NCBI GenBank assembly: GCA_018691345.1
Contig: JABGTJ010000016.1
Coordinates: 125-64,124, forward strand
DNA: 64,000 bases
Direction: 5' to 3'
From: Methanobacteriota archaeon
GTDB taxonomy: Archaea; Thermoplasmatota; Poseidoniia; Poseidoniales; Poseidoniaceae
Numbering within the stretch: the stretch's first letter is position 1; every line of letters starts with the position of its first letter. Shown in pieces: positions 4,158-57,100 of this stretch. The notes under the pieces are model-generated. The model ran no database searches, was not told where the DNA came from, and worked only from the letters and a program-made list of their open reading frames with translations. A program made the position numbers and the translations under genes.

Positions 4158-4787
4158 TCAAAGTTTCAATGCGTTGAGTATGTCACCGGTTATTTCATCG
4201 ATAGCTCTGTCCCCGTTTACGGCGTGAAAAATTCCTTTAGAGCGGTACCAGTCTGCAAGCGGTGAGGTTTGTTGATGGTAGGCTGCTAAGCGTGAACTTA
4301 CCGTTTCTTCGTTATCGTCAGCCCGTCGCTTCTCTTCCCAATTGCCGCATGCGCATCCATCGTCAGATACAGGATTGAATGTATCATGGTAAACACTTCC
4401 GCAGCCAGCACACGAATAGCGACCGCATATTCGCTCGACAATACGCTCGTCTGGGACTTCAATTGCGATGACGTGCGTGACTCCAGTAATCTGCTCCAAT
4501 GCCTCAGCTTGTGGTACGGTTCGAGGGAATCCATCAAACATGACTCCGTTCTTTGCGTCGGGTTCAAGAATCCGATCCTTGATGAGGTCGATGATGACTG
4601 AATCTGGAACGAGCAAGCCTGCTTCCATGAAACCTTTAGCCTCCAGACCAGTTGGGGTACCGGCTTTAACAGCAGCCCGCAACATGTCTCCGGTAGAAAC
4701 TTGAGGAAGGCCAGTTGCGTCAATCATTCGTTCTGCTTGAGTCCCTTTACCAGCACCAGGAGGTCCAAACAATACAATACTGCTCAT
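4158..4787 (-). CDS. adk: Adenylate kinase, long bacterial-type with Zn-binding lid
   Basis: P-loop GPPGAGKGTQ, then STGDMLR, then DGFPRT. The lid carries four Cys (CAGCG...CACG). Confidence 0.95.
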   Translation of the reverse strand: MSSIVLFGPPGAGKGTQAERMIDATGLPQVSTGDMLRAAVKAGTPTGLEAKGFMEAGLLVPDSVIIDLIKDRILEPDAKNGVMFDGFPRTVPQAEALEQITGVTHVIAIEVPDERIVERICGRYSCAGCGSVYHDTFNPVSDDGCACGNWEEKRRADDNEETVSSRLAAYHQQTSPLADWYRSKGIFHAVNGDRAIDEITGDILNALKL

Positions 4788-4831
4788 GTATCGGGCTAGA
4801 GGTGCCTCGTATTAGACATGCTTATCGACGA

Positions 4832-7800
4832 TTACTGCTGGTCCAACCATTGTTGCCCATAGTGTTGCCATTGTTCCATACTCCAACCAATTGGTAATCC
4901 ACTGGCCGGAAGTGGTGGGCCTGCAACTGGTGCGGGGACCATTGGAGCAGGTACTGGAGCAGGTGTCGGCGTTGGTAATGCTTGAGAAGGTACTGGGAGG
5001 GGTAAGTGCGGCATCACCTTTGGAGGCATTCCTGCTGGTGGCATACCCATTGGCATTGGGAGTGGCATGCCTCTTGGAGGCAATCCTGCTGGCGGCAAGC
5101 CCATTGGTGGTATCCCTTGCTTGGCCTGTGTTGGCATGTCAAGGGATTGGGCGAGTGCGGCTGCGATTTCATCGGATGAAACTTCACCACTGGAGAGTTC
5201 GTCCACCGCAAGGCCGATATCGAGTGCATCGCTACGGCGTGTTCCCAGATGATCTGGATTAACAAATGCATCTGGTGCTACCAACTCCTCACCCGCATCG
5301 GTGAGTTCACCGCCCTTCTTGACCCGTAAGGCGACGACGATAGCAGCAAGCAACGCAACCACGACAAGTGGAGCGCTTACGTAAAGCGGCAATCCACCTA
5401 GAAGCCCTTTGGCTCCAGTCGCTGACTCAACGGTTGTTTCTATCGACAAGGTTCCAATGGTAGTACCGTCTGTTGAAAGTGTGATGGTCGAGAAGAGAAG
5501 GCCTTTTTCAGCATCATCACCAGGTGTAAGTTCAAGCATGACTGTGAGTTCATCCCCAACACCAAGATTTTCGAGCGATGATGGTGAACATGAAAGTGTC
5601 CAGACTGAAGAAATATTTCCTTCTTGGTCGAGGACTTCAGTGATTATATCTCCAGTGATTGGGACGTTGCCATCGTTACGGATAATGATGTTCTGCATCA
5701 CCGTCTCACCTCGTGAAACAGAGGAGAAGGGAGCCACTGTAGTGTCTTCAACGGTAAGATTCGCAAAGGTCGATTCGAGTACGGCTATGTCAACGGTAAC
5801 TGAAGTTTGAACGGACCTGCCGTTGCTAAATCCAGTGACGGTAGCCACCAGTTCAAACGCCTTTTGAGTTGGAAGAGTATTCGATGGAGGTATGAAACCC
5901 AATCGGACGACCCTCTCTTCACGTGGTTCGATGTAGGTACTTGGATTCGCATAGCCTACAATCCAGCCATCGGCTGGCAAGCCTTTGGTCCAATTCAACG
6001 TCAAGGGGGTGTTTCCTGTATTGATAACGGTGAATTCACCAAAGGAGAAATCCGATGAAATAACCGTCTCAATCACACCGGATTCGGGTCCAAAGAGGTC
6101 CATGGAAAGGTCGTCACGGACCTTCAAAACCGTCGCGTTTGAAACAAAGGACTGTGGAGTTCGTTCGGTACGGATGTCAAAGTTATTCGCTTCGCCTTCC
6201 TCAGCAACTGGAGGTACACCGATGATGAAATTGACCGTTGCCACTTCACCACCGAGTAACGTAAGCGAAACTTGGCGGCTGTTCACTTGCGTCATGTAGG
6301 AAACTTCAATCGGCCAGAGAGGGTTACTTGGTTGTATCTTGACATCCAAGTCAATTGCCTTGTTACCGGTGTTTTCAATGGTCAAATTCAGGCTCACTTG
6401 CTGAGCAGTATCAACCATAATGTTTCGGTTCGAGGATGAAGGACCAATCGGTCCTAGATCGTCATACAGATCACTGACAAAGGACTCCTGTGCCAAAACC
6501 AGCACATCGACGGATTGGGTGAAGTTGAGGGTTGGATCGGTTGCCGAATTCAAATGACAGGTCACCGTGTCAGTCGAACCAGCTTCAGGAACTCCATTGG
6601 AGACTGGAGGAACCCAAATTTGGATAAGCATTGGAAGTGATTCCTTAATGTTCAACGGTTCGAATTCTAATGTAGAAGAATTTGAGTTACCGAGTTGTAT
6701 TTGCCATCTGTTTTGAGATTCGCATGATACGGAGTACTGCGCTGGTGTGTTTCCAATGTTCATGACCGAAATCGAGAATCCGGTGGATTCACCCGGTGCG
6801 GCTGATAATCCGGAAATTCCGGCTGCTCCAATATTGACATCGGTGACCTGCGGGACAATGATTGTCACTCTCTGCGTGTGAGATACCGTAGGTTGAGATT
6901 GGTAACGAGCAGTGATGTCCACGACAAATGTTCCTGCACGAGCATAACGAGGGGATTCAGAATTACTTAGGTCAACGAAATTGTTGACAAGAGTGACGTT
7001 GAGAAGTTTGTAGTCATCAATTTCACCCTGACCTTGAACGATGTATGGTCCAATTTCAGAAACCGACTTGGACCAAGAATCTTCAGGAGCCAACAGGAAA
7101 TCTGGTCTGCCTGGTTGAGGTTTCTGAACATTGGTGACCGAAAGGGTTACTGCTTGCTGCCCAGTTCCCTCGTGGAGAATGTGAATTGGAATCTGAATCG
7201 AAGAGGCATTGAGCACATCGAATGTGTGTACAGCGGACAGGGCACGGTCTTCTGGAGAAGTTGGAGCCACACCCGCATCATCCAGTGCTACGACGCGAAC
7301 ACCGAGTGCAGTCACTTCGATGTCTTGTTCCCAGATGTTGTTGTCGACTCCAGATACGGCATCGTTCATTTCGCTCACCTGGTTAAGTGTGTCAATACTC
7401 AGTCGCATTGAATGTGTACCTGTCGTAGTAAACTGATGCTGAAGCAAGAAAGAATCAATCTTGCCCGAATCAAGACCTGGCCTGTCGGCGTCAAACAAAA
7501 CTTGGCCAGTGGTAAGGTCTTCCAGGATTACATGGAATGAGCCTGACGAGAGAGTCCCTTGGTTAATCCAACCCAGCTGGAGGGTAATCAAGTCGTTTTT
7601 GAGAGGTTCTGGAGAAGATGGTACGATGCTACCGTCGAATGTTGCTAAGTCGGATTGTGGATTTGGAGTTGCATCTGCCACGACAACGAGGCTGAATCGC
7701 TGAGCAAGGCCTCCTGAATGAAGAACCTTGATTTGCCATTGACCCGACGTCGTAAGAACGCCCGGTTCGACTTTGATTCTCTCGACATTATTGACTGCGT

Positions 7801-9802
7801 CTGCAGTTCCACCAATCGTAGAAACTCCAGCCAAGAAATCGTTCCCAAGCCGTTCATTTCCAGACGGGTCAACCAAGACAAGGTCAAGGTTGTTGACCAA
7901 ACGTGGAGAGGATTGGGCAGCGTTCGCACTTCCCTCAAGGTCCGTCCAGGCAAGTGTAATGTCAACGCCATGTATCGGGTCGAGGTCAAACGAATACAGT
8001 AAACCAAAACCAGCATTTACCTCTTTATTGTTATCGAAGAAGGTATCCAGTGCTAACGTACCGTCCATTGGTAGAACTGTTCGTTCCAAATCGATTTGCC
8101 CCCAACCTTCCTCTGCATTCGGTATATCAGGCGTGCCTAAGTCCGTCGCACCGTTGATAATTGCGGCTTTGATGAGCGATGCCGAGGGTGTGTTGATGTT
8201 GATTTGCTCGCGCAAGAACTCACGAACAAGGGCGGTTGTTCCTCCAGCAATTGCTGTAGCATGTGAGGACCCTGAAAGAGTCATGTAGAGATTTGTCGTA
8301 CCATCTGCGTGAAGGCCAGTGGCGCAAGAAAAGCCACTGGGAGACTTTGCTTCCTCGGCCAATCCCGAACAAATATCGATTCCTGGGGCGACGAGGTCTG
8401 GTTTTATGCGGCCGTCGAGACTCGGCCCTTGGCTCGAAATGTTGGCAACTGATCCGGACAAGGAGCCTGTTTGTGAAGTTCCAACTGAAAGTACGTTCTT
8501 ACCGGTCGATGGTGCGGCTACTTGAGATGCGCCACTCGAACCACGGTCGCCGGCAGAAAACAATGGAAGGACTGTGTCCTTTTGGTTGACCAGTAGGTCA
8601 ACAGAGCGTGAATCAGCAGTGTAGTGGCCGTAATTACCGTTTGAGCCCCAAGCGTTTACCGAAATACGGGCCGTACGTTGTTCAGCATCGTTGAGCATGT
8701 CATAGATGGAGCCGAGCCGGCCAAAGACTCCTGTTGGGTCGTGTTCCAAAGCGTACATGACGAGATTGGCAGCAGGAGCAATTCCTTCAGCAGATGCGTC
8801 GCCAGTTCCGTCCCCAAGTACCGACAAAGCCACGTGCGTTCCATGGCCTGTGTTCGAATCAATAGGCGATGGGTCAAGACCGAAGTTCGTATACACTCCT
8901 GCAACCCGGCCGACGATATCAGGGTGGTCGCGGTCGATTCCTGTATCGGCGATAGCGATGGTTTCACCAGAGCCATCGAGGGTAAAGGATGCATTTGCAG
9001 AAACATCATCAAGACCGACAATTCCACCAGCAAGTGCGTTGTGGAGCGTCAAACCATAAGTTGGTTCTGTCCAAATGATTCGTCCATCGTGCATGATGTT
9101 GTTGAGAAGAGTCGACTGGAGGCTTGAAGCAAAATGCACTTCACACAACCCCACGCCACACCAAGCTTCATCAGCACCCATTTTCAGTAAGTCAAGGCTC
9201 AAGGCTTCAAGACCGCCAAGTGCTAAATCTGACGATGGAACAAGTGCAAGATGGGTGTGTTCTGTGATCGAAAGAAGTTCGCTATGCATTCTCCAACCGG
9301 GGTGTTGTGCTCCTGCCCAGCGAACGCGTTCATCGGATTGTAGCGATTCAAGCGTATTCATTGGTGGATGAGGTAGTCGAACAAGCCATCCTTCATCAGC
9401 GACGAAATCAAGAGCAGTTAGACCGTAGGTCTTTGAAAGAGAATCAAGGACTGCTCCGTTGTGTTCATGCAATTGGACCAGTGCTAACCCTGTTTGTGCA
9501 GGGTCGTTGAGGTCGATGAAGAATTTGTCAAGAGTCGGTCCTTCGGAAATCAAAGGGTCGAATTCGCCTGATTGAAGGCGAAGAACACCACTTGCATCTT
9601 GGATATCTGTTGAGAAAACACTCGAAGATTCGAGCGGTGACCAAAGTTGACGAGCTACCTCCATTCGTTCTGCTTCGGAAAGCAACTGGTCGTCCGCTTC
9701 AGACAGCGTAACATTCGAGGAAGTGCTCTCCAACAACAATGGACTGAGCGAAGTGAACAGAAGCAACAAGAGCATGAGCAATGGTTGTCGCATGGCCTTC
9801 AT
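4832..9802 (-). CDS. Giant membrane-anchored subtilisin-like (S8) serine protease with CARDB/COG1470-like repeats and a long cytoplasmic tail
   Basis: 1656 aa with a Sec-type signal peptide (MKAMRQPLLMLLLLLFTSLS). The S8 triad contexts are IAIADTGID, GHGTHVA and LSGSSHATAIAGG. There are many [VI]xNxGNxP-type Ig-like repeats (FTVINTGNTPLTL, IIIRNDGNVPITG, LTIENTGNKAIDL, ISVMNIGNTPAQY). A C-terminal TM helix is followed by a 162-aa tail. Confidence 0.85.
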   Translation of the reverse strand: MKAMRQPLLMLLLLLFTSLSPLLLESTSSNVTLSEADDQLLSEAERMEVARQLWSPLESSSVFSTDIQDASGVLRLQSGEFDPLISEGPTLDKFFIDLNDPAQTGLALVQLHEHNGAVLDSLSKTYGLTALDFVADEGWLVRLPHPPMNTLESLQSDERVRWAGAQHPGWRMHSELLSITEHTHLALVPSSDLALGGLEALSLDLLKMGADEAWCGVGLCEVHFASSLQSTLLNNIMHDGRIIWTEPTYGLTLHNALAGGIVGLDDVSANASFTLDGSGETIAIADTGIDRDHPDIVGRVAGVYTNFGLDPSPIDSNTGHGTHVALSVLGDGTGDASAEGIAPAANLVMYALEHDPTGVFGRLGSIYDMLNDAEQRTARISVNAWGSNGNYGHYTADSRSVDLLVNQKDTVLPLFSAGDRGSSGASQVAAPSTGKNVLSVGTSQTGSLSGSVANISSQGPSLDGRIKPDLVAPGIDICSGLAEEAKSPSGFSCATGLHADGTTNLYMTLSGSSHATAIAGGTTALVREFLREQININTPSASLIKAAIINGATDLGTPDIPNAEEGWGQIDLERTVLPMDGTLALDTFFDNNKEVNAGFGLLYSFDLDPIHGVDITLAWTDLEGSANAAQSSPRLVNNLDLVLVDPSGNERLGNDFLAGVSTIGGTADAVNNVERIKVEPGVLTTSGQWQIKVLHSGGLAQRFSLVVVADATPNPQSDLATFDGSIVPSSPEPLKNDLITLQLGWINQGTLSSGSFHVILEDLTTGQVLFDADRPGLDSGKIDSFLLQHQFTTTGTHSMRLSIDTLNQVSEMNDAVSGVDNNIWEQDIEVTALGVRVVALDDAGVAPTSPEDRALSAVHTFDVLNASSIQIPIHILHEGTGQQAVTLSVTNVQKPQPGRPDFLLAPEDSWSKSVSEIGPYIVQGQGEIDDYKLLNVTLVNNFVDLSNSESPRYARAGTFVVDITARYQSQPTVSHTQRVTIIVPQVTDVNIGAAGISGLSAAPGESTGFSISVMNIGNTPAQYSVSCESQNRWQIQLGNSNSSTLEFEPLNIKESLPMLIQIWVPPVSNGVPEAGSTDTVTCHLNSATDPTLNFTQSVDVLVLAQESFVSDLYDDLGPIGPSSSNRNIMVDTAQQVSLNLTIENTGNKAIDLDVKIQPSNPLWPIEVSYMTQVNSRQVSLTLLGGEVATVNFIIGVPPVAEEGEANNFDIRTERTPQSFVSNATVLKVRDDLSMDLFGPESGVIETVISSDFSFGEFTVINTGNTPLTLNWTKGLPADGWIVGYANPSTYIEPREERVVRLGFIPPSNTLPTQKAFELVATVTGFSNGRSVQTSVTVDIAVLESTFANLTVEDTTVAPFSSVSRGETVMQNIIIRNDGNVPITGDIITEVLDQEGNISSVWTLSCSPSSLENLGVGDELTVMLELTPGDDAEKGLLFSTITLSTDGTTIGTLSIETTVESATGAKGLLGGLPLYVSAPLVVVALLAAIVVALRVKKGGELTDAGEELVAPDAFVNPDHLGTRRSDALDIGLAVDELSSGEVSSDEIAAALAQSLDMPTQAKQGIPPMGLPPAGLPPRGMPLPMPMGMPPAGMPPKVMPHLPLPVPSQALPTPTPAPVPAPMVPAPVAGPPLPASGLPIGWSMEQWQHYGQQWLDQQ
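4835..4900 (-). other. C-terminal Trp-rich tail motif GLPIGWSMEQWQHYGQQWLDQQ
   Basis: About 50% identical, and nearly all conservative, to the terminus of the 35442-40856 protein (GLPEGWTLDQWNHFGWQYVESMKK). Confidence 0.7.
5019..5107 (-). repeat. 54-nt-spaced duplication encoding MG[LM]PPAG[LM]PP[RK] within the Pro-rich tail
   Basis: ttggaggcattcctgctggtggcatacccattgg and ttggaggcaatcctgctggcggcaagcccattgg are near-identical copies 54 nt apart. Confidence 0.6.
8183..8980 (-). other. S8 catalytic domain of the giant protease (approximate bounds)
   Basis: By my residue count the triad is Asp ~286, His ~320 and Ser ~513. The oxyanion Asn context is VNAWGS. Confidence 0.7.
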
Positions 9803-9840
9803 GTGCTGTCGAAATCAATTACCCTTTTCAACACGCGCCT

Positions 9841-9865
9841 TGAATGTGCCCCGAAGGGGCATTCA
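9841..9865 (-). terminator. GC-rich hairpin between the gap stop and the protease start (possible terminator or attenuator)
   Basis: tgaatgtgcccc-gaa-ggggcattca forms 5+5 bp with a 2-nt bulge. No clear oligo-T tract follows on the minus strand, so the call is weak. Confidence 0.3.
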
Positions 9866-9867
9866 GT

Positions 9868-10905
9868 TCACAGGTTATTGTACTTAGAAATGGCTGAATC
9901 GGTTTTAGCCACCGATGCCATCCAGTCCTCTTCTACGCCCATCAGTGCACGGATTGCATCGACGTTTTCAGGAATGACATCGGATTCTTGGTGAATCGCT
10001 TGGAAATAATAAAGGGTGTTGCCTTCAAGTTTTACTCCATCTTCCCAAATGAAGATTTCATGCAAATCGCCCCACTTTCTACCTATATCGCGGGCAAATT
10101 CCATGACCTCTGCAGTTGTTGTTATTCCTGTTTCTGAACCGTTCATGATGACCAAACGAGGACGGTTTGACCACATCTCAAGAACCGATTCGGTTGTTAG
10201 TCCGTGGCCTTCAGGAAGGGTTGCTGTGACCACGTGGACGTGCATAATGGTAGTTGGAACTGCAACTGCCATGGAATTAATCTGAATTTCTGGCTTTACC
10301 GTCATGACATCTGGCCCGTGATGTGAGGGCACCTTGAGAACAGGTTTGATGGCGTTAATTGGCCCCTTACTCGAGTCACCAGGGTCGGCTGCACGGCGAA
10401 TCATGGTGCATTCTACTCTCAGTTCCCCACAGTGCTCGTACAAAGGAACTAGAGTTCGAGAAAGACCAGTCGTGTTGCACGAGACTACACGAGTACCTTC
10501 AACGTTCAAGTTTTCCTTGTGGTTTGCAGATGATGTGTACGACATCTCCGTCATCGCATGCTTTTCTCCGCCTTGAAAAATCCATTTGATTCCTGCGTTT
10601 TGGTACGTTTCTTTGTTGGAAGCACCAACTTTGCCAGGCGAACAATCGATCACGATGTCTGCGATTTTGAGGAGATCAGATAGGCCACCATGGCACGAAT
10701 AGCCCGCAGTAGCAAATGCTGCAATACGGTCCTTATCATCGAACGTACAGTAGATTGGGTAACCCTTGCGAACGGCCAAGTCACAGCCAAAAGCCGGACG
10801 GGTCTTCGTCACACCAACAATTTCCATGTCATCTTGGGCGTCGACTGCGTCCGCAACCCGCTTCCCAATAGTTCCGTATCCATTGATTGCCACCTTGATG
10901 GTCAT
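9868..10905 (-). CDS. gap: Type II (archaeal) glyceraldehyde-3-phosphate dehydrogenase
   Basis: MTIKVAINGYGTIGKRVADAV Rossmann N-terminus and catalytic SCNTTGL. Start set at the internal ATG (M30 of the ORF), giving about 345 aa as in archaeal GAPDH. Confidence 0.9.
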   Translation of the reverse strand: MTIKVAINGYGTIGKRVADAVDAQDDMEIVGVTKTRPAFGCDLAVRKGYPIYCTFDDKDRIAAFATAGYSCHGGLSDLLKIADIVIDCSPGKVGASNKETYQNAGIKWIFQGGEKHAMTEMSYTSSANHKENLNVEGTRVVSCNTTGLSRTLVPLYEHCGELRVECTMIRRAADPGDSSKGPINAIKPVLKVPSHHGPDVMTVKPEIQINSMAVAVPTTIMHVHVVTATLPEGHGLTTESVLEMWSNRPRLVIMNGSETGITTTAEVMEFARDIGRKWGDLHEIFIWEDGVKLEGNTLYYFQAIHQESDVIPENVDAIRALMGVEEDWMASVAKTDSAISKYNNL

Positions 10906-11027
10906 TGCACTCAATATACCTGCCTTTGAAGACCCTCTATTAACACATCGTCGAAACGGCTCGAAATGTGAAGCCGAAAAAACAGTGTTCAAACGGAACG
11001 AAATGAAGCCAAGTTACGGGAGGCTAT

Positions 11028-12644: not shown

Positions 12645-14393
12645 ATGCCAACAATTTCAGTAGAACAAAAACTCTTGCGCTCGCTGCTTGAAAAGCATGG
12701 GTTGGTGCATGACATCCCAAAGATGGATGACCAGTTACCACTTCTTGGCACAGATATAGACACCTGTGACGAGAATGTTCTCGACATTGAAATTTTCCCG
12801 GACCGGCCTGACCTTTTGTCAGGAGAAACGCTCGCTAAAGCCATCCGACCGTTCCTGCACGGTGCGCCGAGTGAGCCAAGCATGGAAGTTTCCAAAGGCT
12901 TGGTAAAAATGACTGTGGAGCCCGAATTGGAGCATGTTCGACCCGTGGTCGTCGGTGCAGTTGTACGTGGCATCAATATTTCAGGTGATGCTGAAGAGAA
13001 AGACGCGTTCATTAAGACGCTCATGGATCATCAAGAAAAGTTACACTTCGCACTAGGGCGTGGTCGCCGTAGAGCGTCCATTGGAGTCCATGATCTATCG
13101 ACGATATCTCCTCCGTTTAAGGTACAAGCCGTTGCTGCAGATACTCGATTCTGCCCTCTTGGCATGGAAGAAGAAATGTCACTCGAAGAGATTTTGAAAT
13201 CTCATCCCAAGGGCGTAGAGTACGCCCACTTGCTTGAAGGAATGAGTTTGTATCCCATTATTACAGATTCAGAACATCAAGTTCTCTCCTTCCCTCCGAT
13301 TATCAACGGTGTTCAAACAACCGTCACCCATTCAACAACCGACTTTTTCATCGAAGTAACGGGGTGGGACCGTAGAGCCTGCGAATCGAGCATGATGCTC
13401 ATCGCCCTACAACTGGCTGAACGAGGAGGAACGATTGAGTCGATTGAAGTGAACGGTTTCAACGGTCGTTCTGAGAGCCTACCTCGTCCTGAACCGATAC
13501 ACCATGAAGTAACTCAACGACTGCTTGATGGTTTACTTGGCCGCAGTTTGACCGATGAAGAGATCGGTACAGCCACAAACAGGATGGGCGGCCAATTTCT
13601 CGGCAGAAAACCTGCCGAGGTTTTCACAGACTACCCGGACAACAGGATGTCGGACGTCATTCCAGGAGATACGATTCTTACCTTCGCCATGCCACGGTGG
13701 AGATTCGACATCCTGCATCCAATCGATTTGGTCGAAGATGTCGCTATCGGTCACGGTTACGAAGACCTCGGACATGATGTACCCAAAGCTCCGATGACCG
13801 CCATACCACGTCCTGATTCACAAATTCGAAGGCGTATACGAGAATCGTTACAAGGACTTGGCCTGATGCAAATACAATCGCTCACACTCTCGAACGATTT
13901 CGACCAGTTTGAGGCTATGCGATGGCCTGCAATGGGTGATGTGACACGAATTACAAACCCGATCACCATTGAACACACTCTGCTTCGGCAATATTTGCTT
14001 CCCGGATTGTTTCGCTTGATGGCTTCAAACAGGCATCACGACCTTCCTCAAGCCGTCTATGAATTGGGCACAGTCGTACGAAACCACACAAACGGTGACC
14101 GATTCGCATTCCTCGTAGCAGAACAAGGTGGCGGATTTGCTGCAGTACGTGGACGTATTCAAGCCCTCATGAGAGACTTAGGTGCTGCGGAATATTCCAT
14201 TGAACCCCTTGGTGGAGATATGGGACCTTGGCTTGCTGGACGATGTGCAAAAGTGATTGTGAACGGCGAACATGTTGGCTGCTTTGGCGAAATGGATCCC
14301 GCCGTCAGCTCACAATACGAACTTAAAGTTCCACTCAACGGAGCAGAATTTGATATTCAAGCACTGCAATCGGTTCTTCCCGACCCGGTTTAA
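12645..14393 (+). CDS. pheT: Phenylalanine--tRNA ligase beta subunit (archaeal type)
   Basis: 582 aa with the MPTISV N-terminus typical of archaeal PheT. B3_4/B5-like middle region (HFALGRGRRRASIGVHD) and a C-terminal catalytic-like fold. Confidence 0.9.
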   Translation: MPTISVEQKLLRSLLEKHGLVHDIPKMDDQLPLLGTDIDTCDENVLDIEIFPDRPDLLSGETLAKAIRPFLHGAPSEPSMEVSKGLVKMTVEPELEHVRPVVVGAVVRGINISGDAEEKDAFIKTLMDHQEKLHFALGRGRRRASIGVHDLSTISPPFKVQAVAADTRFCPLGMEEEMSLEEILKSHPKGVEYAHLLEGMSLYPIITDSEHQVLSFPPIINGVQTTVTHSTTDFFIEVTGWDRRACESSMMLIALQLAERGGTIESIEVNGFNGRSESLPRPEPIHHEVTQRLLDGLLGRSLTDEEIGTATNRMGGQFLGRKPAEVFTDYPDNRMSDVIPGDTILTFAMPRWRFDILHPIDLVEDVAIGHGYEDLGHDVPKAPMTAIPRPDSQIRRRIRESLQGLGLMQIQSLTLSNDFDQFEAMRWPAMGDVTRITNPITIEHTLLRQYLLPGLFRLMASNRHHDLPQAVYELGTVVRNHTNGDRFAFLVAEQGGGFAAVRGRIQALMRDLGAAEYSIEPLGGDMGPWLAGRCAKVIVNGEHVGCFGEMDPAVSSQYELKVPLNGAEFDIQALQSVLPDPV

Positions 14394-14770
14394 GATTGGT
14401 AAGGAACGTAGGTTCCATCGTTGTTCTTTTTGTGAGGGATTGGATCAAATGAACCGTCGCTCTTTTTCTTGTAGTGGTATCCATCCGTGTGATGAACCCA
14501 TGTGAAGTTCTCTTGTGTCGTTGGTTTTCGTGTACTTGAGTCAACGATTCCTTCGTAAAACTGGGATTGCTCTTCAGCGCGTTTGATGGTCGTATCTCCG
14601 TTTCCAAAGAGAGATACTGCAGCCATGTAGTCATCCGACTTTCGATGGGATGAATCCGCAAGAGTTTCCTCGGCAGACCCCGAGTCCTTCCGATATACAA
14701 TCGCTTGAGGTTCTGGCTCGTCCAGTTGCAGAGGTTGCTTCTTTTTACCAAAGGGCCAGAAAGGAGGCAT
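14390..14770 (-). CDS. Small hypothetical protein with a WW-like C-terminal segment
   Basis: Trimmed to the internal ATG (MPPFWPFGKKK) so it does not overlap the divergent gene at 14865. The C-terminus is FTWVHHTDGYHYKKKSDGSFDPIPHKKNNDGTYVPYQS. Confidence 0.4.
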   Translation of the reverse strand: MPPFWPFGKKKQPLQLDEPEPQAIVYRKDSGSAEETLADSSHRKSDDYMAAVSLFGNGDTTIKRAEEQSQFYEGIVDSSTRKPTTQENFTWVHHTDGYHYKKKSDGSFDPIPHKKNNDGTYVPYQS

Positions 14771-14864
14771 ACCACTACGACGGACTCCTGCTTGATGAAG
14801 ACTGCGAAGGACACATGATGCAGGAATTGGGTGAACTTCAAAGGGTGAATGGCTTGGACAGACT

Positions 14865-22318: not shown

Positions 22319-22385
22319 AACTTCACCAATATCAGCCCAGCGCGCATGGCACATAATAGAAGCGCCTTTTAGTGAACAAACCGTA

Positions 22386-22736
22386 TCATAGTGCCTTCTC
22401 AAGAAGCGCACCTAATTCCTTCTCAAAGAGTGAGACAACTGCTTCGCCAACCTCGCCCTGTAAATCATCAGGAAGCAAGCGAAGTCCGAGGCGGGTTGCT
22501 GCTCGAGTTGCCTTTAATTCCGCATATACGGTACGTGCCTTGGTATGGAAATAGTAGGCGACAGCCTCTTTAATTTCTGCTTTCAGCTCGGGGTCTTCCT
22601 CGACCTTACTACGAATGTGGGCTTTGAGTTCATCTTTGACCAGTTCACGGAATGCTTCGATTACGAGGTCTTCGGTTGACATCAAATCTTGAACTTGGTC
22701 TCGTATACTACCGGTAAGCAATCGTTCAATGGCCAT
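22386..22736 (-). CDS. Small all-helical hypothetical protein
   Basis: 116-aa ORF rich in charged and helix-forming residues. I recognise no motif. Confidence 0.5.
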   Translation of the reverse strand: MAIERLLTGSIRDQVQDLMSTEDLVIEAFRELVKDELKAHIRSKVEEDPELKAEIKEAVAYYFHTKARTVYAELKATRAATRLGLRLLPDDLQGEVGEAVVSLFEKELGALLEKAL

Positions 22737-34943: not shown

Positions 34944-34979
34944 AGTTTGCCGTAGTGGTGGTTATTTTCAAACCATTGC

Positions 34980-35432: not shown

Positions 35433-35441
35433 GTCAGCAAC

Positions 35442-38400
35442 TCACTTCTTCATCGATTCGACGTATTGCCAACCAAAATGGTTCCATTGGTCGAGGGTCC
35501 ATCCTTCCGGAAGACCAGTTGGTGGGAGTGGTGGAGGGGCTTTTACCGGCGCGGCAACTGCTGGTGCAGGAGACACCGATGGTTGAGGTAATGTCAAACC
35601 ACTTGGTGGTGGTAAGTCTTGATCAATTGCCGGAAGCATCTTTGAGGTTTGAAGAGATTCAAGGACTTCTTCCGTTTGGTCTTCCACACCTGCATCTAAT
35701 TCTCCTTCCCGGATTCGCCGGTTCATCACTAACAGCCACATCGCCATGCTGAGAGAAAGGAGAGCAACGATGTAGAGTACGATGCTAAAGGTTCCTTCTT
35801 GGGCTTGCTGAACAAGCGCTTTGCCATCACGAATAGTCTGTTCTTTGATGAACAGTGGGTCGAGTGATGTACGGTCCATTTCCACCTCATCCACCAACAC
35901 TACGAGTCTGAATTCAATACTGTCACCAACATCTGCATCGGCAATTGTAGGTAGAGACCCTGTCAACTCACCACCCGCTGTTGCTACAATGTCAACCCGA
36001 GCGATGTTTTCCCAAAAGCCACCCTCAACAGCACGTTGAAGAACGAGGGATACGTCACCTTTACCGCCTAGATTTCGAACCTCGAAATCAAGGTTGACTG
36101 CTTGTTGTGCTATTGGACTTGGGTCGTCCCATGAGAAACTGCTTGTTGCAGCATTAAGGTCAATACTTGGGCCGAGTAAAGCCAAAGACCATGACGCAAT
36201 TGGCTCGTAAATAGAATTGCCAGTGGTATCGAACGGATTACCTGCAGAATCGGAACCTGAAACCCAAACATCAACCATGTAGGATGGCAAAAGTGTTGTT
36301 GCCCCTGCATCGGTCAAATCAAGATTACCGGTCCAGAAAAATTGCTCGCCAAACGGAGTTGTGTCGGGTAAAGGTACACTACCCCTTGAAATTTCAGCCT
36401 CTCCGGCACGTACACGATAGTGAATAACTGCAGGCTCGTCGAGATCAAATCCGTAGTTATCCAATGTCTCAAGCATAACCAACAGGTCACCGCATGCACC
36501 AATGGAAAGCGGGGAGCCTGAATTGACTTCATCCAAAGTGATGGCGGCAATGGTAGGACGGGTACTGTCAACAGCCAAGCGTACACGCTGAGTTATGGAA
36601 GTTTCATCCATCGCAAAGCCGGGTAAATCGCTCAGATCGAGTTGTAAATCAAGATGTCCTGATGGTACAGATGGAATCAACAAGTCGAGACTAAATTCAC
36701 CATCGTCACGAGTTGAGGTCGTCCATGTATTGTCGTAGTCTCCAAAAACAACGTCAAAAGCACCGGGTGGTGCAGGTGTTTCGTCTTCAGAGAAAAGAAC
36801 TCGGCCATTGACGCGAAGTGCTTGACCTGCACCGATGAGAGTTTCATCAAAATCTGAGTTGTAATGATTCGTTCCATCACGGAGCTCGACTGCTCGAATA
36901 TGGCCTTCCATAGTATCAAACCGGAAATCATTATCAAGGCTCCATGCATCGTTTCCTAGCCCTTCTTTGGTTTCAAAGCATGGAGTTACTTCGATGTCAT
37001 TGCAAGGCAAATCGGTCACCATTATTTTTGGAATAATGAGACTGGTACCGTCGGTATCAAATATTTCGGGGAACGTCCAAGTAAGTTGGAAGCGTGCTAA
37101 AATTTTGATGAGGTTATTATCCGTTTCATCCAAACTCACGCTTGAGTACAGATTCGAGACTGCAATGTTTGCTGAGCCGGACTCCATCACTGCGACTGGT
37201 AAACCATCATGACCCTTTGTCAGGGAGATGAACAAAGAACTTTCATCATCATCATAATCTCCACCAAGAGCCAATTGAATGTACTGAATATCTTCCCAGC
37301 CGTTTCGGTCAGAGAGTACGATTTGTGCTGTGTAAGGAATGCCTGGATGCAGAGGAGCCGAATCGTCGTGGCCGAGGATGGTCGAATTGTCCAAATCAAG
37401 CTCTGGTTCAAACTCAACTCGGATACGGTAGGTGCCCAAATCGTTATCCCAATCAGGTTCAGTTTCGCCAGGTACGTAGCCACATGCGGTATTGCTGTCT
37501 GGGCAAACTGGCCCACCACCCATTGCAATAGCGTTATCCTGGGCGTCTTTGCCAGTGATGAAATACGAAACAACTTGACCATGTTGAAGCATTGAGTCAT
37601 CGATGAGTCCTTCGAAAATATTCAAACCTCCGGTTTGTGTATCCGGTGAATTAAGCACTTTCAATTCATATTCGTTTGAATTCGGTAATCCATCGAAATT
37701 GTAGTCGCTGCAACCAATCGCCTCGCTGGTCTTGCACCCAATCCAATAGTTGAGGGTAATCTGACTTGGAGGGTCTACAGAGTCTTGAATCACGACGCTA
37801 AGCCCTTGACCACCGGGTGCAGGCGGACCTGCGTGGCGTTCTGTACCGTCCGCTGGAGTTGAACCTAAGACCAACGGTGAATTACCGTCGAGTACCAGTC
37901 GTATGGTATTGTATCCTGGGTTCGTGAACATCGAGCCGTTTTTCAATTCTATTGCTTCGACGTAAAATACCATTCCACCCGGTGCAGATTCCATTGGTGA
38001 AGTGATGGTGATGTTGTAAGAACCAAAGGCCGGATTTTGCTCACGTGCTAGTTCGATCGGCTCGCCAATCGGGTCACCGTCATAAGTTACGTTTTGACCT
38101 AAGATACGGAGGGCAAATTGGCCACCCAATGGAGTGAGTTGTGAGTCTTGGAAATGTATGATGCCTGTAAACGAAATCAGATAGCCTCCACGTACCCAAT
38201 CTTGGGAATACAGTTCTCGACCGGTTTCTTCGTACACTCGAAGTCCGTCGAGTTGAATATCGTTTTCGACAATCATGTCCAAAGAATCAGTCTCCCAAGC
38301 AGCGACTGCCTGACCCAAGTCATCATGAACTGAAATCAGTGCCTGCAATTTACTTTCGTCATCCCATGTCCAGTTGACGGACATTGGCATACGGATTGTG

Positions 38401-40835: not shown

Positions 40836-40901
40836 GTCTGCCCCCCATCCTACCACAGGCGCTATGGCCTTTGAATTATACCCCTACAGGTTCGGTCGAA
40901 A

Positions 40902-54107: not shown

Positions 54108-57100
54108 TCACTGATCTGGTGTGTAGTTTGGATCTGGAACCCAGCTGTTGGACTCAGAATCCCATAGCCATCCGGGATGTTGCGAAGATTGAGGAGCTGC
54201 AGCAGGTTGAGCCGCAGCAGCGATGGGCTGAGCGGCCACCGGGGTTGTAGCAACAGCAGCAGATGGAATACTAACTGGGTCCTGACGAGCCTTGGCCCAA
54301 GCGTAAGGGTCTGCTGAGGAAGCCTCTTGTTCGGATTGAGCAACTTCATTGAGTTCATCCATGCCTTCATACTCAACCTGGAAAAAGAACATCCCTGCAC
54401 CAAGAAGCGCAATGACTCCAATCACTACAGCAACAATCAGCATGACGTTCGAATTCGATTCTGCGCCATCACTGATGCTGAGTTTGAATACAGCGTTACT
54501 GTTCTCACCAGGGGCGGTATAGACTTGGTCATCCATTTCAAAGATAATATTACTTGTACCTTCCATTCCGGAGAGTTGACTGCTGGAAATTTCCATGGTC
54601 CATGTTGCGTCTGCATTGACACGTGTTTGGTTAATTCGAACCCCTTTGAGGCTGTCAAATCGGGCTTCGACCAAACTATTGGGCAAGCCTTGACCGCTGA
54701 AGTACGCTGGTGAATCTGGTCCCAAAAGTCCAGTGTTATCTCGGACAACACTGAATGTCACTTCGACCACAACGACGTTGACCTTGTAGGAGTAGGCAAC
54801 TGAGTCGTAAGCATCACGAGCCACAAACATCAGGCCAACCAAGGACCATTCCGAGACTTCGTTCGAAAGTCCAGTCACATAGGCGGGGTCATAACTGACG
54901 ACACCCTTGTCAGAAAGTGTGAGATAATCGCCATAGAAGTCATCATCCAAGTTAGTAGGGTCATCGAAAATATCGAAACTCAGACCATTTGTCTTACCAT
55001 CATCGGCACCGTCTGCATCGGAGAAGTGTTCCATGAGGTCAATACTAATTCCACCGTTACAGCGGTCAAGTTTCGTAGGATTTGAGTCGCAGAACAAGGT
55101 GATTGTACTGGCCCACCCTGTCGAGTTGAAATCTGGCACGATGTTATCGGCGTCGGTTGGATTATCAATTTTTATTCGGATTCGCTCCTCGTTCGAAAAG
55201 TCCTTCCCGTCCCATGCCTTGATCACCAATTCATACTGTTGGTCGTGAATAAGGTCGGAGGTGTCCCATGTCGTGTACCAAGCACCGTTCGGTGCGAAGT
55301 TCGTTACCGGGTCTGGACCGTTGTTAATCGGCACGCCGCTGGCTAGATCAAAGATTGAGATTTCGACGCGAGTTACCAATCCATCGTTGTCAAGTGCGAC
55401 GCCTTGAATCAATTGCGTTTCACTGGCCCGGATAATGTCCGAATTCAAAGGCTCACTGAGTTGAACGAATGGAATGGCGTTGTCGGTGTTGATGTTGATG
55501 CTGCGAGTTTCATGTTCGCAATCAGTCCAACTGGATTTCGTATTACAAAAGTCACTGTCAGACGCCCAAATTCGGAAATCATACTGCCCTGTTTGCAACT
55601 CTTGGAAAATCCAATCGTATGCCCATGCAGTTGAACCTGATACATCGAAGTTCGCCGTGTAACCGTTCGGACCGTTGATGTCAAACCAAATCGAGTTGAT
55701 GTCGCTTCCCCATGTCCCGGTGTAAGGGTCGCTTGCTGTACCGGTAAAGGTCACTTTTCCAGTTGTGTGCGATGACCCGTCAGCGGGTGAATTCACCAGT
55801 GTGGTTGGAGCAACTAAGTTCAACTTGTATTTGCGAACTTCGACCGGGGAATAATCCAGACCGTCGTAGGAGCGTACACGGAATGTGACGTCACCTTCGC
55901 CTTCAGGATGAGCGGACAAGTCCCAATCGAACGACCATGTTTTGAACGGATGCACAGATTTGGTAATCATTCCGTTCGCTCCTGAGGTGTCCAGTGCTGA
56001 ATACCAATCCGTCGAGCCAGGTGGTTGGATTTCTACACGCTTGATGAGGCCAAATTGGTTCTCATAGGCGATTTGGTCCAAAGCATATGGGCCAGAGATT
56101 CCATCCCAAGAGCTACCACTAAGGGAAGCAGTTGTCGCAAAAGAGAATCCATCGTTTTGTGATACAGTAACACTCGGCTTCAAGTTCACAAGATTGATGA
56201 CATCATCAATTCCGCCACTGAGGACGAAATTGAAATCTTTTTGCCCCTTGCCGAACTTGTATGCTTCCACGGTGTAGAACGGAAGTTCACGGCCACCGGT
56301 ACAGTCTGCGTCCGCAGAGTCTACCTTGGTGTCGCCATCGTTATCGTATCCATCAGCACATGAGTTCTCATCGATGAAAATTGGATTTCCTTGAGCATCG
56401 GTTTCACCAGGAATTTGAACGTTGGTTTCGCCAACATTGTGGTTCCAGTTTCGGTCAAGCAAAAAGTCGGATGGGAGCGAAACTTCTGGTGTGAAACCAA
56501 AGGCATCGGTTGTGAGGGTGTAAAGTGGCAATCCAGATGCATCTCGGATAATGACTGTAGCGTCCACTACATTGCTGTTCTGTGCCTTCACTTGGTAACG
56601 GACAAGTTCACCTTCTCGAACTTGACTGCCCCATGCGGAGTTTTGGTTCTGCACATGAATCTTTGAGGAATCAAAGTTTTGTAAGTCGGCATAAGAGAAC
56701 ACGGTTGAGTTTTCAACGACCTCAAGAGCCAATGGCATGAACGCTGGTGGCATGATAGCAGTCGGAGGCACCTGCAAACACTCGTCGAGGACGTATGGGC
56801 ATTCAGGGCCAAGCCATTGAAGCGATACTGGGTATGAAAGCGAATCGTCGTTGCCGTCACCATCGTAATCGGTAGGAATCGCGTCGGGGATGTATTCCGA
56901 CTGTACAGTAACTCGTGATTCGGTAATGTTGTAGACCTGCGTTGCGTTGGTGTAAGTGTTCTCGGAGAAGTAAGCGATTGAACCGTACTTGTTACCGTAG
57001 TTATCGTCATACAGCGAGATGTTTGCAGCAAAGCCAGAAACTTCTATTGTGTTTCGTTGAGCGTTAACGATGCTTGCCTTGATTCGCATCCCATCTCCAG

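What the first reader, a model, noticed from the sequence alone, without database searches (positions are those of the whole stretch)
4835..5320. Conserved cytoplasmic tail module shared by unrelated giant surface proteins
The giant subtilase (4832-9802) and the adhesin-like giant (35442-40856) have dissimilar ectodomains. After the C-terminal TM helix, however, they share the same layout.
- A basic stop-transfer segment.
- GEL(T)DAG(E/V)E.
- An acidic stretch.
- A Pro-rich linker.
- A nearly superimposable terminus: GLPIGWSMEQWQHYGQQW versus GLPEGWTLDQWNHFGWQY.

The beta-helix giant (54108-58529) has the same overall layout and a terminal GWLWDSESNSWVPDP, which shares the GWxx[DE]...W core.

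A conserved extreme C-terminal peptide on the cytoplasmic side suggests recognition by a common partner for sorting, anchoring, clustering or signalling. This is not a PGF-CTERM/archaeosortase-type signal, which would end right after the TM helix.
Basis: seen in the sequence. Interest (0 to 1): 0.7.

Follow-up and report, generated by a model that had tools for sequence, protein, structure and literature searches.

The report
Shared cytoplasmic tail tag in marine archaea
Many unrelated surface proteins of the abundant ocean archaea Poseidoniales (Marine Group II) end, on the inside of the cell, in the same unannotated 25-residue tryptophan-rich peptide, which most likely docks them all to one still-unknown internal partner.

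Summary
The window comes from a Poseidoniales (Marine Group II) archaeon.

- **Type A module.** The S8 protease (4832-9802) and the unknown giant (35442-40856) both end in PP[LIV]PxxG[LI]PxGW[TS]M[ED]QWxx[YF]Gxx[WY]L, then 4-7 polar residues and stop.
- **Distribution.** This tag sits on at least 8 ectodomain families (about 320-1800 aa), all from Poseidoniales-type contigs. A profile search found 638 clusters.
- **Layout.** It is always signal peptide, ectodomain, one TM helix, K/R cluster, then an acidic Pro-rich linker of 34-140 aa before the module.
- **Selection.** Synonymous sites are saturated, so selection acts on the protein.
- **Annotation.** Pfam, NCBIfam, the PDB and the literature hold nothing matching.
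- **Type B module.** The beta-helix giant (54108-58529) carries a different terminal module, [HYN]PGW[LIM]WDxxxx[EQ]W[VA][PA]DP. It is predicted as a beta-hairpin and shows no detectable homology to type A. Types A and B do replace each other on homologous, even syntenic, ectodomains.
- **GEL(T)DAG box.** It is not conserved beyond close relatives.

Best reading: interchangeable cytoplasmic docking peptides for a shared partner. No partner was identified, so the function is inferred.

The parts
4835..4918 (-). Type A terminal module of the S8 protease: PPLPASGLPIGWSMEQWQHYGQQWLDQQ (residues 1629-1656), directly before the stop codon at 4832-4834.
   Evidence: Coordinates. It matches the family consensus in 106 genome hits and profile A1. 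AlphaFold2 gives coil for residues 1-16 and helix for 17-30, mean pLDDT 81.6.
4919..5116 (-). Pro/Met-rich spacer with GLPP/GMPP repeats.
   Evidence: Its length and sequence vary among orthologues.
5141..5287 (-). Subtilase-family-specific tail box ELVAPDAFVNPDHLGTRR..ALDIG..VDE..SGEVSxDEIAAALAQSL.
   Evidence: Conserved in orthologue fragments. tblastn gives 53-64% identity over 64 aa in L033, L035, L071 and L107.
5285..5326 (-). Basic stop-transfer RVKK (5315-5326) followed by GGELTDAGEE (5285-5314).
   Evidence: Basic residues follow the TM helix in most carriers. The GEL box is not conserved across orthologues.
5327..5392 (-). Single C-proximal transmembrane helix of the S8 protease (LPLYVSAPLVVVALLAAIVVAL).
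   Evidence: The same architecture is seen in 100 carriers.
4832..9802 (-). Gene for a 1656-aa type I membrane S8 serine protease (Peptidase_S8 at residues 277-568, CARDB).
   Evidence: It is syntenic between the GAPDH and adenylate kinase genes in nine genome loci.
35445..35534 (-). Type A terminal module of the 1804-aa giant: PPLPPTGLPEGWTLDQWNHFGWQYVESMKK (residues 1775-1804).
   Evidence: It is nearly invariant in 39 orthologue fragments.
35535..35723 (-). Tail of the 1804-aa giant: NRRIR (35709-35723), EGELDAGVED (35679-35708), an acidic stretch, and a Pro-rich spacer (35535-35615).
   Evidence: Orthologues vary here and some carry insertions (P0004, P0005).
35724..35789 (-). C-proximal TM helix of the 1804-aa giant.
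54111..54179 (-). Type B terminal module of the beta-helix giant: HPGWLWDSESNSWVPDPNYTPDQ (residues 1451-1473).
   Evidence: Conserved in 59 orthologue fragments and in more than 120 metagenome loci. AlphaFold2 predicts a beta-hairpin with strands 12-15 and 20-23, and 10 residues at pLDDT 90 or above.
54285..54311 (-). DPYAWAKAR box in the beta-helix giant's tail.
   Evidence: Conserved as DPYAWAK[AK][KR] in orthologues.
54381..54446 (-). C-proximal TM helix of the beta-helix giant. It is followed by an acidic segment (QVEYEGMDEL...), not a basic one.

Best explanation
**What it is.** Bases 4835-5320 encode the cytoplasmic tail of a Sec-exported, single-pass (type I) S8 protease of a Poseidoniales archaeon. 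Its last 28 residues are a discrete peptide module, here called type A: PP[LIV]PxxG[LI]PxGW[TS]M[ED]QWxx[YF]Gxx[WY]L, then 4-7 polar residues and stop. The lineage attaches this module to the cytoplasmic end of at least eight unrelated families of surface proteins.

**Shown here**
- The module is real, under protein-level purifying selection, lineage-restricted in the data examined, and unannotated.
- It is placed at the free C-terminus, after a TM helix, a basic cluster and a flexible acidic Pro-rich tether.

**Inferred mechanism**
- The invariant Pro/Gly stretch is probably a polyproline-II segment.
- The amphipathic aromatic helix that follows has a conserved face of M3, W6, Y9, G10, W/Y13 and L14.
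- Together they form a small docking element that is bound by one shared cytoplasmic partner, such as an adaptor or scaffold.
- That would let many different ectodomains be organised, retained or coupled to one intracellular machinery.

**Second module.** A different terminal peptide, type B ([HYN]PGW[LIM]WDxxxx[EQ]W[VA][PA]DP, a predicted Trp-rich beta-hairpin), is carried here by the beta-helix giant. It replaces type A on homologous ectodomains, so it probably serves the same or a parallel docking role.
For: **Conservation**
- In 106 genome hits, positions that the search pattern did not fix are close to invariant. P-7, G-4 and P-2 are 100%, L/I-3 is 99%, T/S+2 is 98%, W/Y+13 is 96%, and P-10 and P-9 are 90%.
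- Third codon positions are saturated (1.8-2.0 bits) while first and second positions are invariant.
- Orthologues keep the module while the TM helix and linker diverge.
- Subtilase positional orthologues at 33-52% ectodomain identity all keep it.

**Many carriers, one tag**
- The carriers fall into 8 ectodomain clusters. Pfam content differs between them: S8, CARDB/PKD, TSP_3 or none.
- The profile search found 638 clusters at E <= 1e-3 in 1.84 billion representatives.

**Fixed placement**
- The distance from GW to the stop codon is 19-21 residues in 89 of 105 carriers.

**Cytoplasmic side**
- The K+R asymmetry is 2.94 after the TM helix against 0.45 before it, and 93 of 100 carriers show after > before. 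N-terminal hydrophobic segments are present.

**Structure**
- AlphaFold2 gives coil plus helix at pLDDT 81.6.
- Entropy alternates in pairs with a period of about 4 from position +5 to +16, which fits a helix with one conserved face.

**Interchangeability of A and B**
- Type B carriers cluster with type A carriers in three ectodomain families.
- The roughly 360-aa family keeps its 800-900-aa neighbour gene in 16 of 19 type B loci.

**Mosaic of further tail boxes, typical of docking motifs**
- ANSMYGG..FQQ, QNITYNISDSA and the LLDDLDL end recur across families.

**Lineage restriction**
- All true genome hits come from contigs named Poseidoniales, Thalassarchaeaceae or Poseidoniaceae, from generically named marine Euryarchaeota/Thermoplasmatota MAGs, or from a few apparently misbinned bacterial MAGs.
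Against: - No partner was identified.
- Carrier genes are dispersed, and no neighbouring gene recurs across carrier families.
- The tools could not model complexes.
- The AlphaFold2 models are of 31-residue peptides with shallow alignments, and Foldseek found nothing significant.
- The same data fit homotypic clustering, or a biogenesis or turnover signal.
- About 16% of the listed profile hits carry 10-60 further residues after the module, so a free C-terminus directly after it is not obligatory.
Confidence: 0.5

Rival explanations
1. Homotypic clustering module. The terminal peptides bind each other, as helix-helix or hairpin-hairpin pairs, or the helix binds the Pro-rich linkers of neighbouring tails. 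This would knit different surface proteins into patches without a separate adaptor.
For: - Each tail carries both a Pro-rich stretch and an aromatic face.
- An invariant Gly lies in the middle of the conserved helix face, which would allow close packing.
- The best, though weak, PDB sequence match is the SAV1 WW domains.
- No partner gene was found near the carriers.
Against: - Types A and B show no similarity and have different predicted folds, yet they replace each other on homologous proteins. That is easier to explain with an external reader than with self-recognition.
- The modules are net acidic, mean charge -2.7, which disfavours self-association.
Confidence: 0.17
2. Biogenesis or turnover signal. 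The C-terminal peptide is read by a chaperone, a membrane-bound AAA protease (for example LonB) or another quality-control factor, and governs insertion, maturation or degradation of type I surface proteins rather than their organisation.
For: - The module sits at the extreme C-terminus with a nearly fixed distance to the stop codon.
- It is shared across many Sec substrates.
- Carrier genes are dispersed, as expected for a housekeeping reader.
Against: - About 16% of the listed profile hits extend 10-60 residues beyond the module and end in a different acidic motif.
- Other type I proteins in the same window lack the module, for example 60002-63925, which ends RISRRSNKGSRF*. It is therefore not a general requirement for biogenesis.
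Confidence: 0.15
3. Membrane-interface anchor. The Trp/Tyr-rich amphipathic helix folds back onto the inner leaflet. It would act as a second membrane attachment or a curvature sensor, and no protein partner would be needed.
For: - The module has three to four aromatic residues on one helical face.
- The hydrophobic moment is 0.34 at 100 degrees against 0.18 at 170 degrees.
Against: - Mean hydrophobicity is about 0 and the mean module charge is -2.7, after a linker of mean charge -8.6. That is a poor fit for binding a membrane surface; the assumption that archaeal lipids are anionic is background knowledge.
- Invariant P-7, G-4, P-2 and G+10 imply a specific shape, not a generic interfacial helix.
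- Type B, a hairpin, substitutes for it.
Confidence: 0.1
4. Truncated WW-type reader domain. The LPxGW start and the spacing to G-x2-aromatic reflect descent from a WW domain, and the module binds Pro-rich ligands.
For: - The profile search of PDB sequences puts the SAV1 WW domains first, with a gapless alignment LPxGW-x8-G-x2-[YW][YL] (E = 0.055).
- hhalign gives 75% probability over the GLPxGW segment.
Against: - hhalign aligns only 10 columns.
- There is no second Trp-x-x-Pro and no room for a third strand, because the protein ends 4-7 residues after position +14.
- The Pfam WW model does not match, even on the isolated module at E <= 10.
- AlphaFold2 predicts a helix, and the conservation period is about 4, not 2.
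Confidence: 0.05
5. Chance or low-complexity resemblance between two Pro-rich tails.
For: Both tails are Pro-rich and compositionally biased.
Against: - The pattern has 0.00 expected matches in shuffles of the window.
- There are 106 family hits with non-pattern positions invariant.
- The profile search found 221 clusters at E <= 1e-10.
- Synonymous sites are saturated.
Confidence: 0.01

Closest known systems
Prokaryotic C-terminal sorting signals (PGF-CTERM/archaeosortase A, LPXTG/sortase, PEP-CTERM/exosortase, GlyGly-CTERM/rhombosortase)
   Same: - One short C-terminal tag is shared by many otherwise unrelated surface proteins of a lineage, a many-to-one relation that implies one reader.
- A TM helix and a basic cluster are part of the layout.
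   Different: - The order is inverted. Known signals are motif, TM helix, then a short basic tail at the very end. Here it is TM helix, basic cluster, a 34-140-residue linker, then the motif.
- The motif is therefore on the cytoplasmic side, where those sortases do not act.
- No NCBIfam sorting-signal model matches.
- There is no evidence of cleavage.
Cytoplasmic tails of apicomplexan TRAP/MIC2-family adhesins
   Same: - They are type I surface adhesins with an acidic cytoplasmic tail.
- Tryptophan and negative charges in that tail are required to link the ligand to an intracellular machinery (abstract of PMC3448169, listed).
- The Poseidoniales tails are likewise acidic and end in Trp-rich peptides.
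- Some neighbouring or carrier proteins have thrombospondin-type repeats.
   Different: - TRAP proteins are eukaryotic, and there is no sequence relation.
- The TRAP motif is essentially one sub-terminal Trp in an acidic stretch, not a 25-residue block with invariant Pro and Gly.
- No actomyosin or aldolase link is known or tested in these archaea.
- This is an analogy of layout only.
WW domain (Pfam PF00397)
   Same: - Both have the LPxGW start.
- Both have the spacing W-x8-G-x2-aromatic.
   Different: - The second half of the domain is missing: strand 3 and W-x-x-P.
- The module is predicted helical.
- The Pfam model does not match.
- The profile-profile alignment covers 10 columns only.
Mycoplasma terminal-organelle proteins with acidic proline-rich domains plus EAGR (aromatic- and glycine-rich) boxes
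   Same: - A cell-wall-less prokaryote combines acidic Pro-rich segments with short aromatic/Gly-rich boxes in proteins of an adhesion and gliding apparatus.
- The boxes are thought to mediate protein-protein contacts (PMC9262362).
   Different: - Those are cytoskeletal cytoplasmic proteins, not the tails of type I surface proteins.
- No sequence similarity was found: no Pfam hit and no PDB hit to an EAGR structure.
- The resemblance is compositional.

Membership tests
PGF-CTERM / archaeosortase-type sorting signal | A conserved short motif (PGF or similar) immediately N-terminal to the TM helix, on the outer side. | tested here: not met
   The conserved motif lies 34-140 residues C-terminal to the TM helix. 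No NCBIfam signal model matches the tails.
PGF-CTERM / archaeosortase-type sorting signal | The protein ends a few basic residues after the TM helix. | tested here: not met
   The tails are about 160 aa (subtilase), about 90 aa (giant 35442-40856) and about 90 aa (beta-helix giant). The median TM-to-module distance is 77 aa.
PGF-CTERM / archaeosortase-type sorting signal | A cognate archaeosortase co-occurs in the genome. | not tested
   Only 64 kb of the genome and 8-kb loci were available.
WW domain (PF00397) | A significant match to the family profile. | tested here: not met
   No Pfam hit at E <= 10 on the whole tails or on the isolated modules. hhalign against a 13-sequence WW alignment aligns 10 columns (GLPxGW), probability 75%.
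WW domain (PF00397) | Two signature Trp residues 20-22 apart, the second followed by x-x-Pro, in a three-stranded sheet. | tested here: not met
   The protein ends 4-7 residues after position +14, with no W-x-x-P. AlphaFold2 predicts a helix for residues 17-30.
WW domain (PF00397) | An N-terminal LPxGW hook and a loop-1 Gly followed by aromatic residues. | tested here: met
   L-3, P-2, G0, W1, G+10 and W/Y+13 are (nearly) invariant. The alignment to the SAV1 WW domains is gapless, E = 0.055.
TRAP/MIC2-like adhesin tail (functional class, not a homologous family) | Type I topology with an acidic cytoplasmic tail and essential Trp near the C-terminus. | tested here: met
   - The tails show the positive-inside asymmetry, and an N-terminal signal segment is present.
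- The linker has a mean charge of -8.6.
- Invariant Trp residues lie in the last 20 residues.
TRAP/MIC2-like adhesin tail (functional class, not a homologous family) | The tail binds an adaptor that couples it to a cytoskeletal motor. | not testable with these tools
   No complex prediction or experiment was possible. No partner gene was found by neighbourhood analysis.
Mycoplasma EAGR box | Sequence match to the EAGR box family or structure. | tested here: not met
   No Pfam family matches at E <= 10. No EAGR-containing chain appears among PDB hits at E <= 10.
Poseidoniales type A C-terminal module (defined here) | PP[LIV]PxxG[LI]PxGW[TS]M[ED]QWxx[YF]Gxx[WY]L within about 27 residues of the C-terminus, after a single C-proximal TM helix. 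| tested here: met
   - Both window proteins match this definition.
- 106 genome hits match it.
- 118 of the 140 listed profile hits carry the module at the C-terminus.

The most novel reading that the evidence does not exclude
Poseidoniales may use a eukaryote-like 'zip-code' system on the cytoplasmic tails of surface proteins. The codes would be interchangeable short modules: the type A PPII-helix, the type B Trp hairpin, acidic-hydrophobic tips such as LLDDLDL*, and further boxes. One or a few cytoplasmic adaptors or scaffolds would read them; candidates to test include TPR/STAND proteins such as 51523-54081, flotillin, and cytoskeletal proteins. That would couple adhesins and proteases to an intracellular apparatus for patterning, outside-in signalling or surface-associated movement. 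No such organisation has been described for archaeal surface proteins.
Probability: 0.25. Interest if true: 0.85.

Novelty: new variant of a known kind. Interest (0 to 1): 0.62.

Why it matters
Marine Group II archaea are among the most abundant archaea in surface oceans, and none has been cultured. How their large surface proteins are organised is unknown.

This tag is a concrete handle on that question:
- It is lineage-wide and sits on the cytoplasmic side of at least eight surface-protein families.
- It has a second, interchangeable module.
- It therefore predicts a common intracellular reader.
- It defines two new sequence families for annotation. Today the carriers are named 'hypothetical protein', 'S8 family serine peptidase' or 'PKD repeat protein'.
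- It gives short peptides that can be synthesised and used as bait.

If a reader exists, it would be an example of adaptor-type sorting or coupling of prokaryotic surface proteins through cytoplasmic linear motifs. Known sortase-type signals act on the other side of the membrane.

Tried and rejected
- **Known families.** Pfam and NCBIfam scans of whole tails and of isolated modules found nothing relevant.
- **WW membership.** It was tested by a PDB profile search and by hhalign. Only the GLPxGW hook aligns, so membership was rejected.
- **Homology between type A and type B.** hhalign probability is 0.5%, so this was rejected. Type B against WW gave 1.5%.
- **Foldseek on the two AlphaFold2 peptide models.** Type A had no match. 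Type B had no match at E <= 0.001, and its best hit was at E = 3.4.
- **Partner search by gene neighbourhood.** ORFs around type A carriers were clustered. Every neighbour cluster is specific to one carrier family, so there is no shared neighbour.
- **N-glycosylation sequon density as a topology test.** It was uninformative, with observed/expected of 0.77 in ectodomains and 1.00 in tails.
- **Viral contigs.** The pattern gave 4 chance matches and none of the family.
- **DNA or RNA element instead of a peptide.** Rejected because third codon positions are saturated.
- **GEL(T)DAG(E/V)E as a shared box.** Rejected after reading the orthologues.
- **Literature.** Searches for the motif strings, and for Poseidoniales surface proteins, found no description.
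Full report
**Source and context.** The window encodes archaeal housekeeping genes and a series of very large secreted or membrane proteins. Fragments identical or close to its proteins are named Candidatus Poseidoniaceae, Poseidonia or Thermoplasmatota. The window is therefore from a Marine Group II (Poseidoniales) archaeon.

The S8 protease gene (4832-9802, minus strand) ends with these elements:
- a TM helix (5327-5392);
- RVKK;
- GGELTDAGEE;
- a family-specific box;
- a Pro/Met-rich spacer;
- PPLPASGLPIGWSMEQWQHYGQQWLDQQ* (4835-4918).

The 1804-aa protein (35442-40856) ends with a TM helix (35724-35789), NRRIR, EGELDAGVED, an acidic stretch, a Pro-rich spacer and PPLPPTGLPEGWTLDQWNHFGWQYVESMKK* (35445-35534).

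The ectodomains are unrelated. One has Peptidase_S8 plus CARDB, one has no Pfam hit, and the third giant has Beta_helix plus Big_7. They fall in separate BLAST clusters.

The shared terminus is more than chance:
- BLASTP of the two tails aligns only the terminus, E = 2e-5.
- The back-translated pattern occurs twice in the window against 0.00 expected.

**Conservation in orthologues.** Searches with the two tails returned 39 and 78 proteins, mostly fragments from short or error-prone contigs. In these the TM helix, the juxtamembrane region and the spacer drift or take insertions, while the terminus stays almost unchanged. The GEL(T)DAG(E/V)E similarity does not survive this comparison, so I do not count it as a shared element.

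- 106 pattern instances belong to the family.
- The remaining matches, mainly in genuinely bacterial MAGs, lack the flanking conserved residues and are not C-terminal.
- Positions the pattern did not fix are close to invariant. P-7, G-4 and P-2 are 100%, L/I-3 is 99%, T/S+2 is 98%, W/Y+13 is 96%, P-10 and P-9 are 90%, and L+14 is 81%.
- The module is therefore PP[LIV]PxxG[LI]PxGW[TS]M[ED]QWxx[YF]Gxx[WY]L.
- GW lies 19-21 residues from the stop codon in 89 of 105 cases.
- All family hits are on contigs named Poseidoniales, Poseidoniaceae or Thalassarchaeaceae, on generically named marine Euryarchaeota or Thermoplasmatota MAGs, or on a few 'bacterial' MAG contigs. The latter carry proteins with tails identical to Poseidoniaceae ones, which looks like misbinning.
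- A profile of the module found 638 clusters at E <= 1e-3 and 221 at E <= 1e-10 among 1.84 billion representatives.
- Named members are annotated only as hypothetical protein, S8 family serine peptidase, PKD repeat protein or uncharacterized membrane protein, from Poseidoniales or Thermoplasmatota.
- Four hits in viral contigs are chance matches.

**Architecture and topology.**
- Complete carriers have an N-terminal hydrophobic segment (49 of 62), usually no other hydrophobic segment, and one C-proximal TM helix.
- A basic cluster then follows. K+R is 2.94 in the 15 residues after the helix against 0.45 before it, and after exceeds before in 93 of 100 carriers.
- A P/A/E/S-rich linker of 34-140 residues (median 77; mean net charge -8.6) precedes the module.
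- By the positive-inside rule and the Sec logic of type I proteins, this puts the module in the cytoplasm.
- Carriers range from about 320 to 1800 aa, so the tag is not specific to giants.
- Ectodomains fall into at least eight clusters. Pfam finds S8, CARDB/PKD-type Ig domains or TSP_3 repeats in some and nothing in most.

**Selection acts on the peptide.** Across 107 distinct DNA versions, the third positions of the Pro, Gly, Leu, Thr, Glu, Gln and Tyr codons are saturated (about 1.0 bit for two-codon residues, 1.7-2.0 bits for the others). First and second positions are invariant. A DNA or RNA element is excluded.

**Predicted shape.**
- AlphaFold2 on a 16-sequence alignment gives an extended N-terminal half and a helix over SMEQWQHYGQQWLD, with mean pLDDT 81.6.
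- Independently, entropy alternates in pairs from +5 to +16. It is low at 5, 6, 9, 10, 13 and 14, and high at 7, 8, 11, 12 and 15-17. That is the signature of a helix with one conserved face.
- In the N-terminal half, the invariant P-10, P-7 and G-4 have the three-residue spacing of a polyproline-II helix. This last point is my inference.
- The module is net acidic (mean -2.7) with mean hydrophobicity near zero. That argues against simple membrane-surface binding.

**Comparison with known families.**
- Pfam and NCBIfam have no model for the tails or the isolated modules.
- The best PDB sequence matches are the WW domains of SAV1 (E = 0.055), aligned without gaps as LPxGW-x8-G-x2-aromatic.
- Profile-profile comparison with a WW alignment covers only the ten columns around GLPxGW. 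The second Trp-x-x-Pro and the third strand are absent, and a helix is predicted.
- WW membership is therefore rejected, and only the N-terminal hook is shared.
- The layout is the inverse of sortase, exosortase and archaeosortase signals.
- The nearest functional analogies are the acidic, Trp-dependent cytoplasmic tails of apicomplexan TRAP-family adhesins (PMC3448169) and the acidic Pro-rich plus aromatic/Gly-rich boxes of mycoplasma terminal-organelle proteins (PMC9262362). Neither shows sequence similarity.
- Literature searches found no description of the motif.
- The main genomic survey of the order mentions thrombospondin and flotillin genes for adhesion, and says nothing about C-terminal features.

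**The third giant carries a different module.**
- The beta-helix giant's terminus is conserved in its own right as [HYN]PGW[LIM]WDxxxx[EQ]W[VA][PA]DP[NDE][YFH], with a DPYAWAKAK box upstream.
- A metagenome scan found more than 120 loci, almost always 20-25 residues from the stop codon.
- AlphaFold2 predicts a Trp-rich beta-hairpin with strands WLWD and SWVP, and 10 residues at pLDDT 90 or above.
- hhalign finds no relation to type A (0.5%) or to WW (1.5%).

**Types A and B are interchangeable.** Type B carriers cluster by ectodomain with type A carriers in three families:
- a roughly 360-aa family;
- an S8 protease family, where the type B proteins are non-syntenic paralogues;
- a roughly 1100-aa family.

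In the 360-aa family, both versions keep the same 800-900-aa neighbour gene in 16 of 19 type B loci, at 30-37% identity. These are thus positional counterparts with swapped termini. Both modules occur in the genome of this window.

**Further boxes also recur across families.**
- ANSMYGG..FQQ appears in two ectodomain clusters.
- QNITYNI[ST]DSA appears in the 35442-40856 family and in the beta-helix family.
- Acidic-hydrophobic tips such as LLDDLDL*, GGLDFDL* and DLDLDF* are appended after type A in about 16% of listed profile hits.

The tails therefore behave as mosaics of short conserved elements separated by variable spacers.

**Mechanism.**
- Shown: a conserved, cytoplasmic, C-terminal peptide module is shared by many families and is exchangeable with a second module.
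- Inferred: the modules are docking elements for a shared cytoplasmic reader.
- I put this at about 0.5. It best explains why two unrelated peptides can substitute for one another at the same position on homologous proteins, and why the tether is long, flexible and variable.
- The alternatives are homotypic clustering (0.17), a biogenesis or turnover signal (0.15), membrane-interface binding (0.10) and a degenerate WW reader (0.05).
- No partner was found. Neighbour genes are specific to each carrier family.
- The one strong linkage concerns the beta-helix giant, not type B in general. Its gene is followed by the wHTH-AAA(STAND)-TPR gene (51523-54081) in 76 of 78 loci that hold its 3' end. That makes this TPR protein a candidate binder of that particular tail.

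**Verdict.** The finding is real, unannotated and considerably broader than reported. It consists of two lineage-restricted families of C-terminal cytoplasmic peptide modules on Poseidoniales surface proteins. The function is unproven. The finding does give clear, cheap experiments.

Noticed in passing
window 51523-54081 (-) next to 54108-58529 (-); loci L125-L243: The beta-helix giant is followed by a wHTH + AAA_16 (STAND) + MalT-like TPR gene in 76 of 78 metagenome loci that contain the giant's 3' end. The two exceptions are loci of only 1.3 and 2.6 kb. This holds across 36-90% ectodomain identity. The S8 peptidase gene 58724-59944 upstream is also syntenic (26 loci). The arrangement could be a receptor-regulator pair.
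   Followed up: partly
profile hits P0205, P0207, P0230, P0278, P0308, P0222, P0287 etc.; loci L052, L092, L100, L112, L074; window 17259-17282 (+): A second kind of extreme C-terminus, acidic-hydrophobic ([LF]LDD[LF]D[LF]*, GGLDFDL*, DLDLDF*), is appended 10-60 residues after type A in about 16% of listed hits. The 806-aa type I protein of the window (14865-17285) ends PVDDDFDI*.
   Followed up: partly
P0004, P0005 (family of 35442-40856); P0161, P0174, L157 (beta-helix family); loci of clusters F1 and F2: Further short boxes recur in the tails of different families. QNITYNI[ST]DSA[VI]xG occurs in two families, and ANSMYGGxxxxFQQ in two ectodomain clusters. ESIESIAG, SGEVSxDEIAAAL and DPYAWAKAK are family-specific.
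   Followed up: partly
window 4158-10992; loci L021, L081, L083, L091, L097, L033, L035, L071, L107: The S8 protease gene lies between the GAPDH and adenylate kinase genes in genomes of both Poseidoniales families, and keeps type A throughout.
   Followed up: yes
window 34152-46655 (-); loci L017, L028, L060, L070, L109, L110, L127, L164: Conserved island: a TSP3-repeat giant (40902-46655, with no TM helix at its end), the giant 35442-40856, a 150-aa acidic ORF (34980-35432, no Pfam, ends EIPEEW*) and an M10-like lipoprotein (34152-34943). In L164 the 150-aa ORF follows the TSP3 giant directly, without the 35442-40856 homologue.
   Followed up: partly
L008:4202-6630(+), L053:1174-3678(+), L099, L111: The 800-900-aa neighbour of the roughly 360-aa carriers ends ...APGPSExxG + TM helix + [PQ]RR[DE]*. 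Because the protein ends right after a short basic cluster, this looks like a sortase-type (archaeosortase-like) C-terminal signal. Both kinds of C-terminal signal may therefore coexist in these genomes.
   Followed up: no
L222 (metagenome locus), C-terminal 260 aa: In one 1313-aa protein, type B is internal to the tail. It is followed by an acidic linker and a C-terminal Cys-rich zinc-ribbon-like end (CSSCGG...CPRCEHDF*). Window proteins 20255-22411 and 30018-31010 also end in zinc-ribbon-like CxxC pairs (DZR_2 weak hit).
   Followed up: no
all type A carriers (loci L005-L123): The tails contain no cysteine in 10,390 residues, against 0.91% in the ectodomains.
   Followed up: no
window 14390-14977 (-): An ORF overlapping the start of 14865-17285 on the other strand ends ...FTWVHHTDGYHYKKKSDGSFDPIPHKKNNDGTYVPYQS*, an aromatic/Gly/Asp-rich repeat-like end with no Pfam match. 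Whether it is a real gene was not checked.
   Followed up: no
window 46890-51521 (+): A cluster of archaeal type IV pilin-like proteins (Pilin_N, DUF7289) lies between the two surface-protein islands.
   Followed up: no
L061, L094: A divergent version of type A lacks the PPLP..GLP half (...DDPRRPxGWTDEQWxHYGP...*). It sits on roughly 370-400-aa proteins with a signal segment and one TM helix.
   Followed up: no
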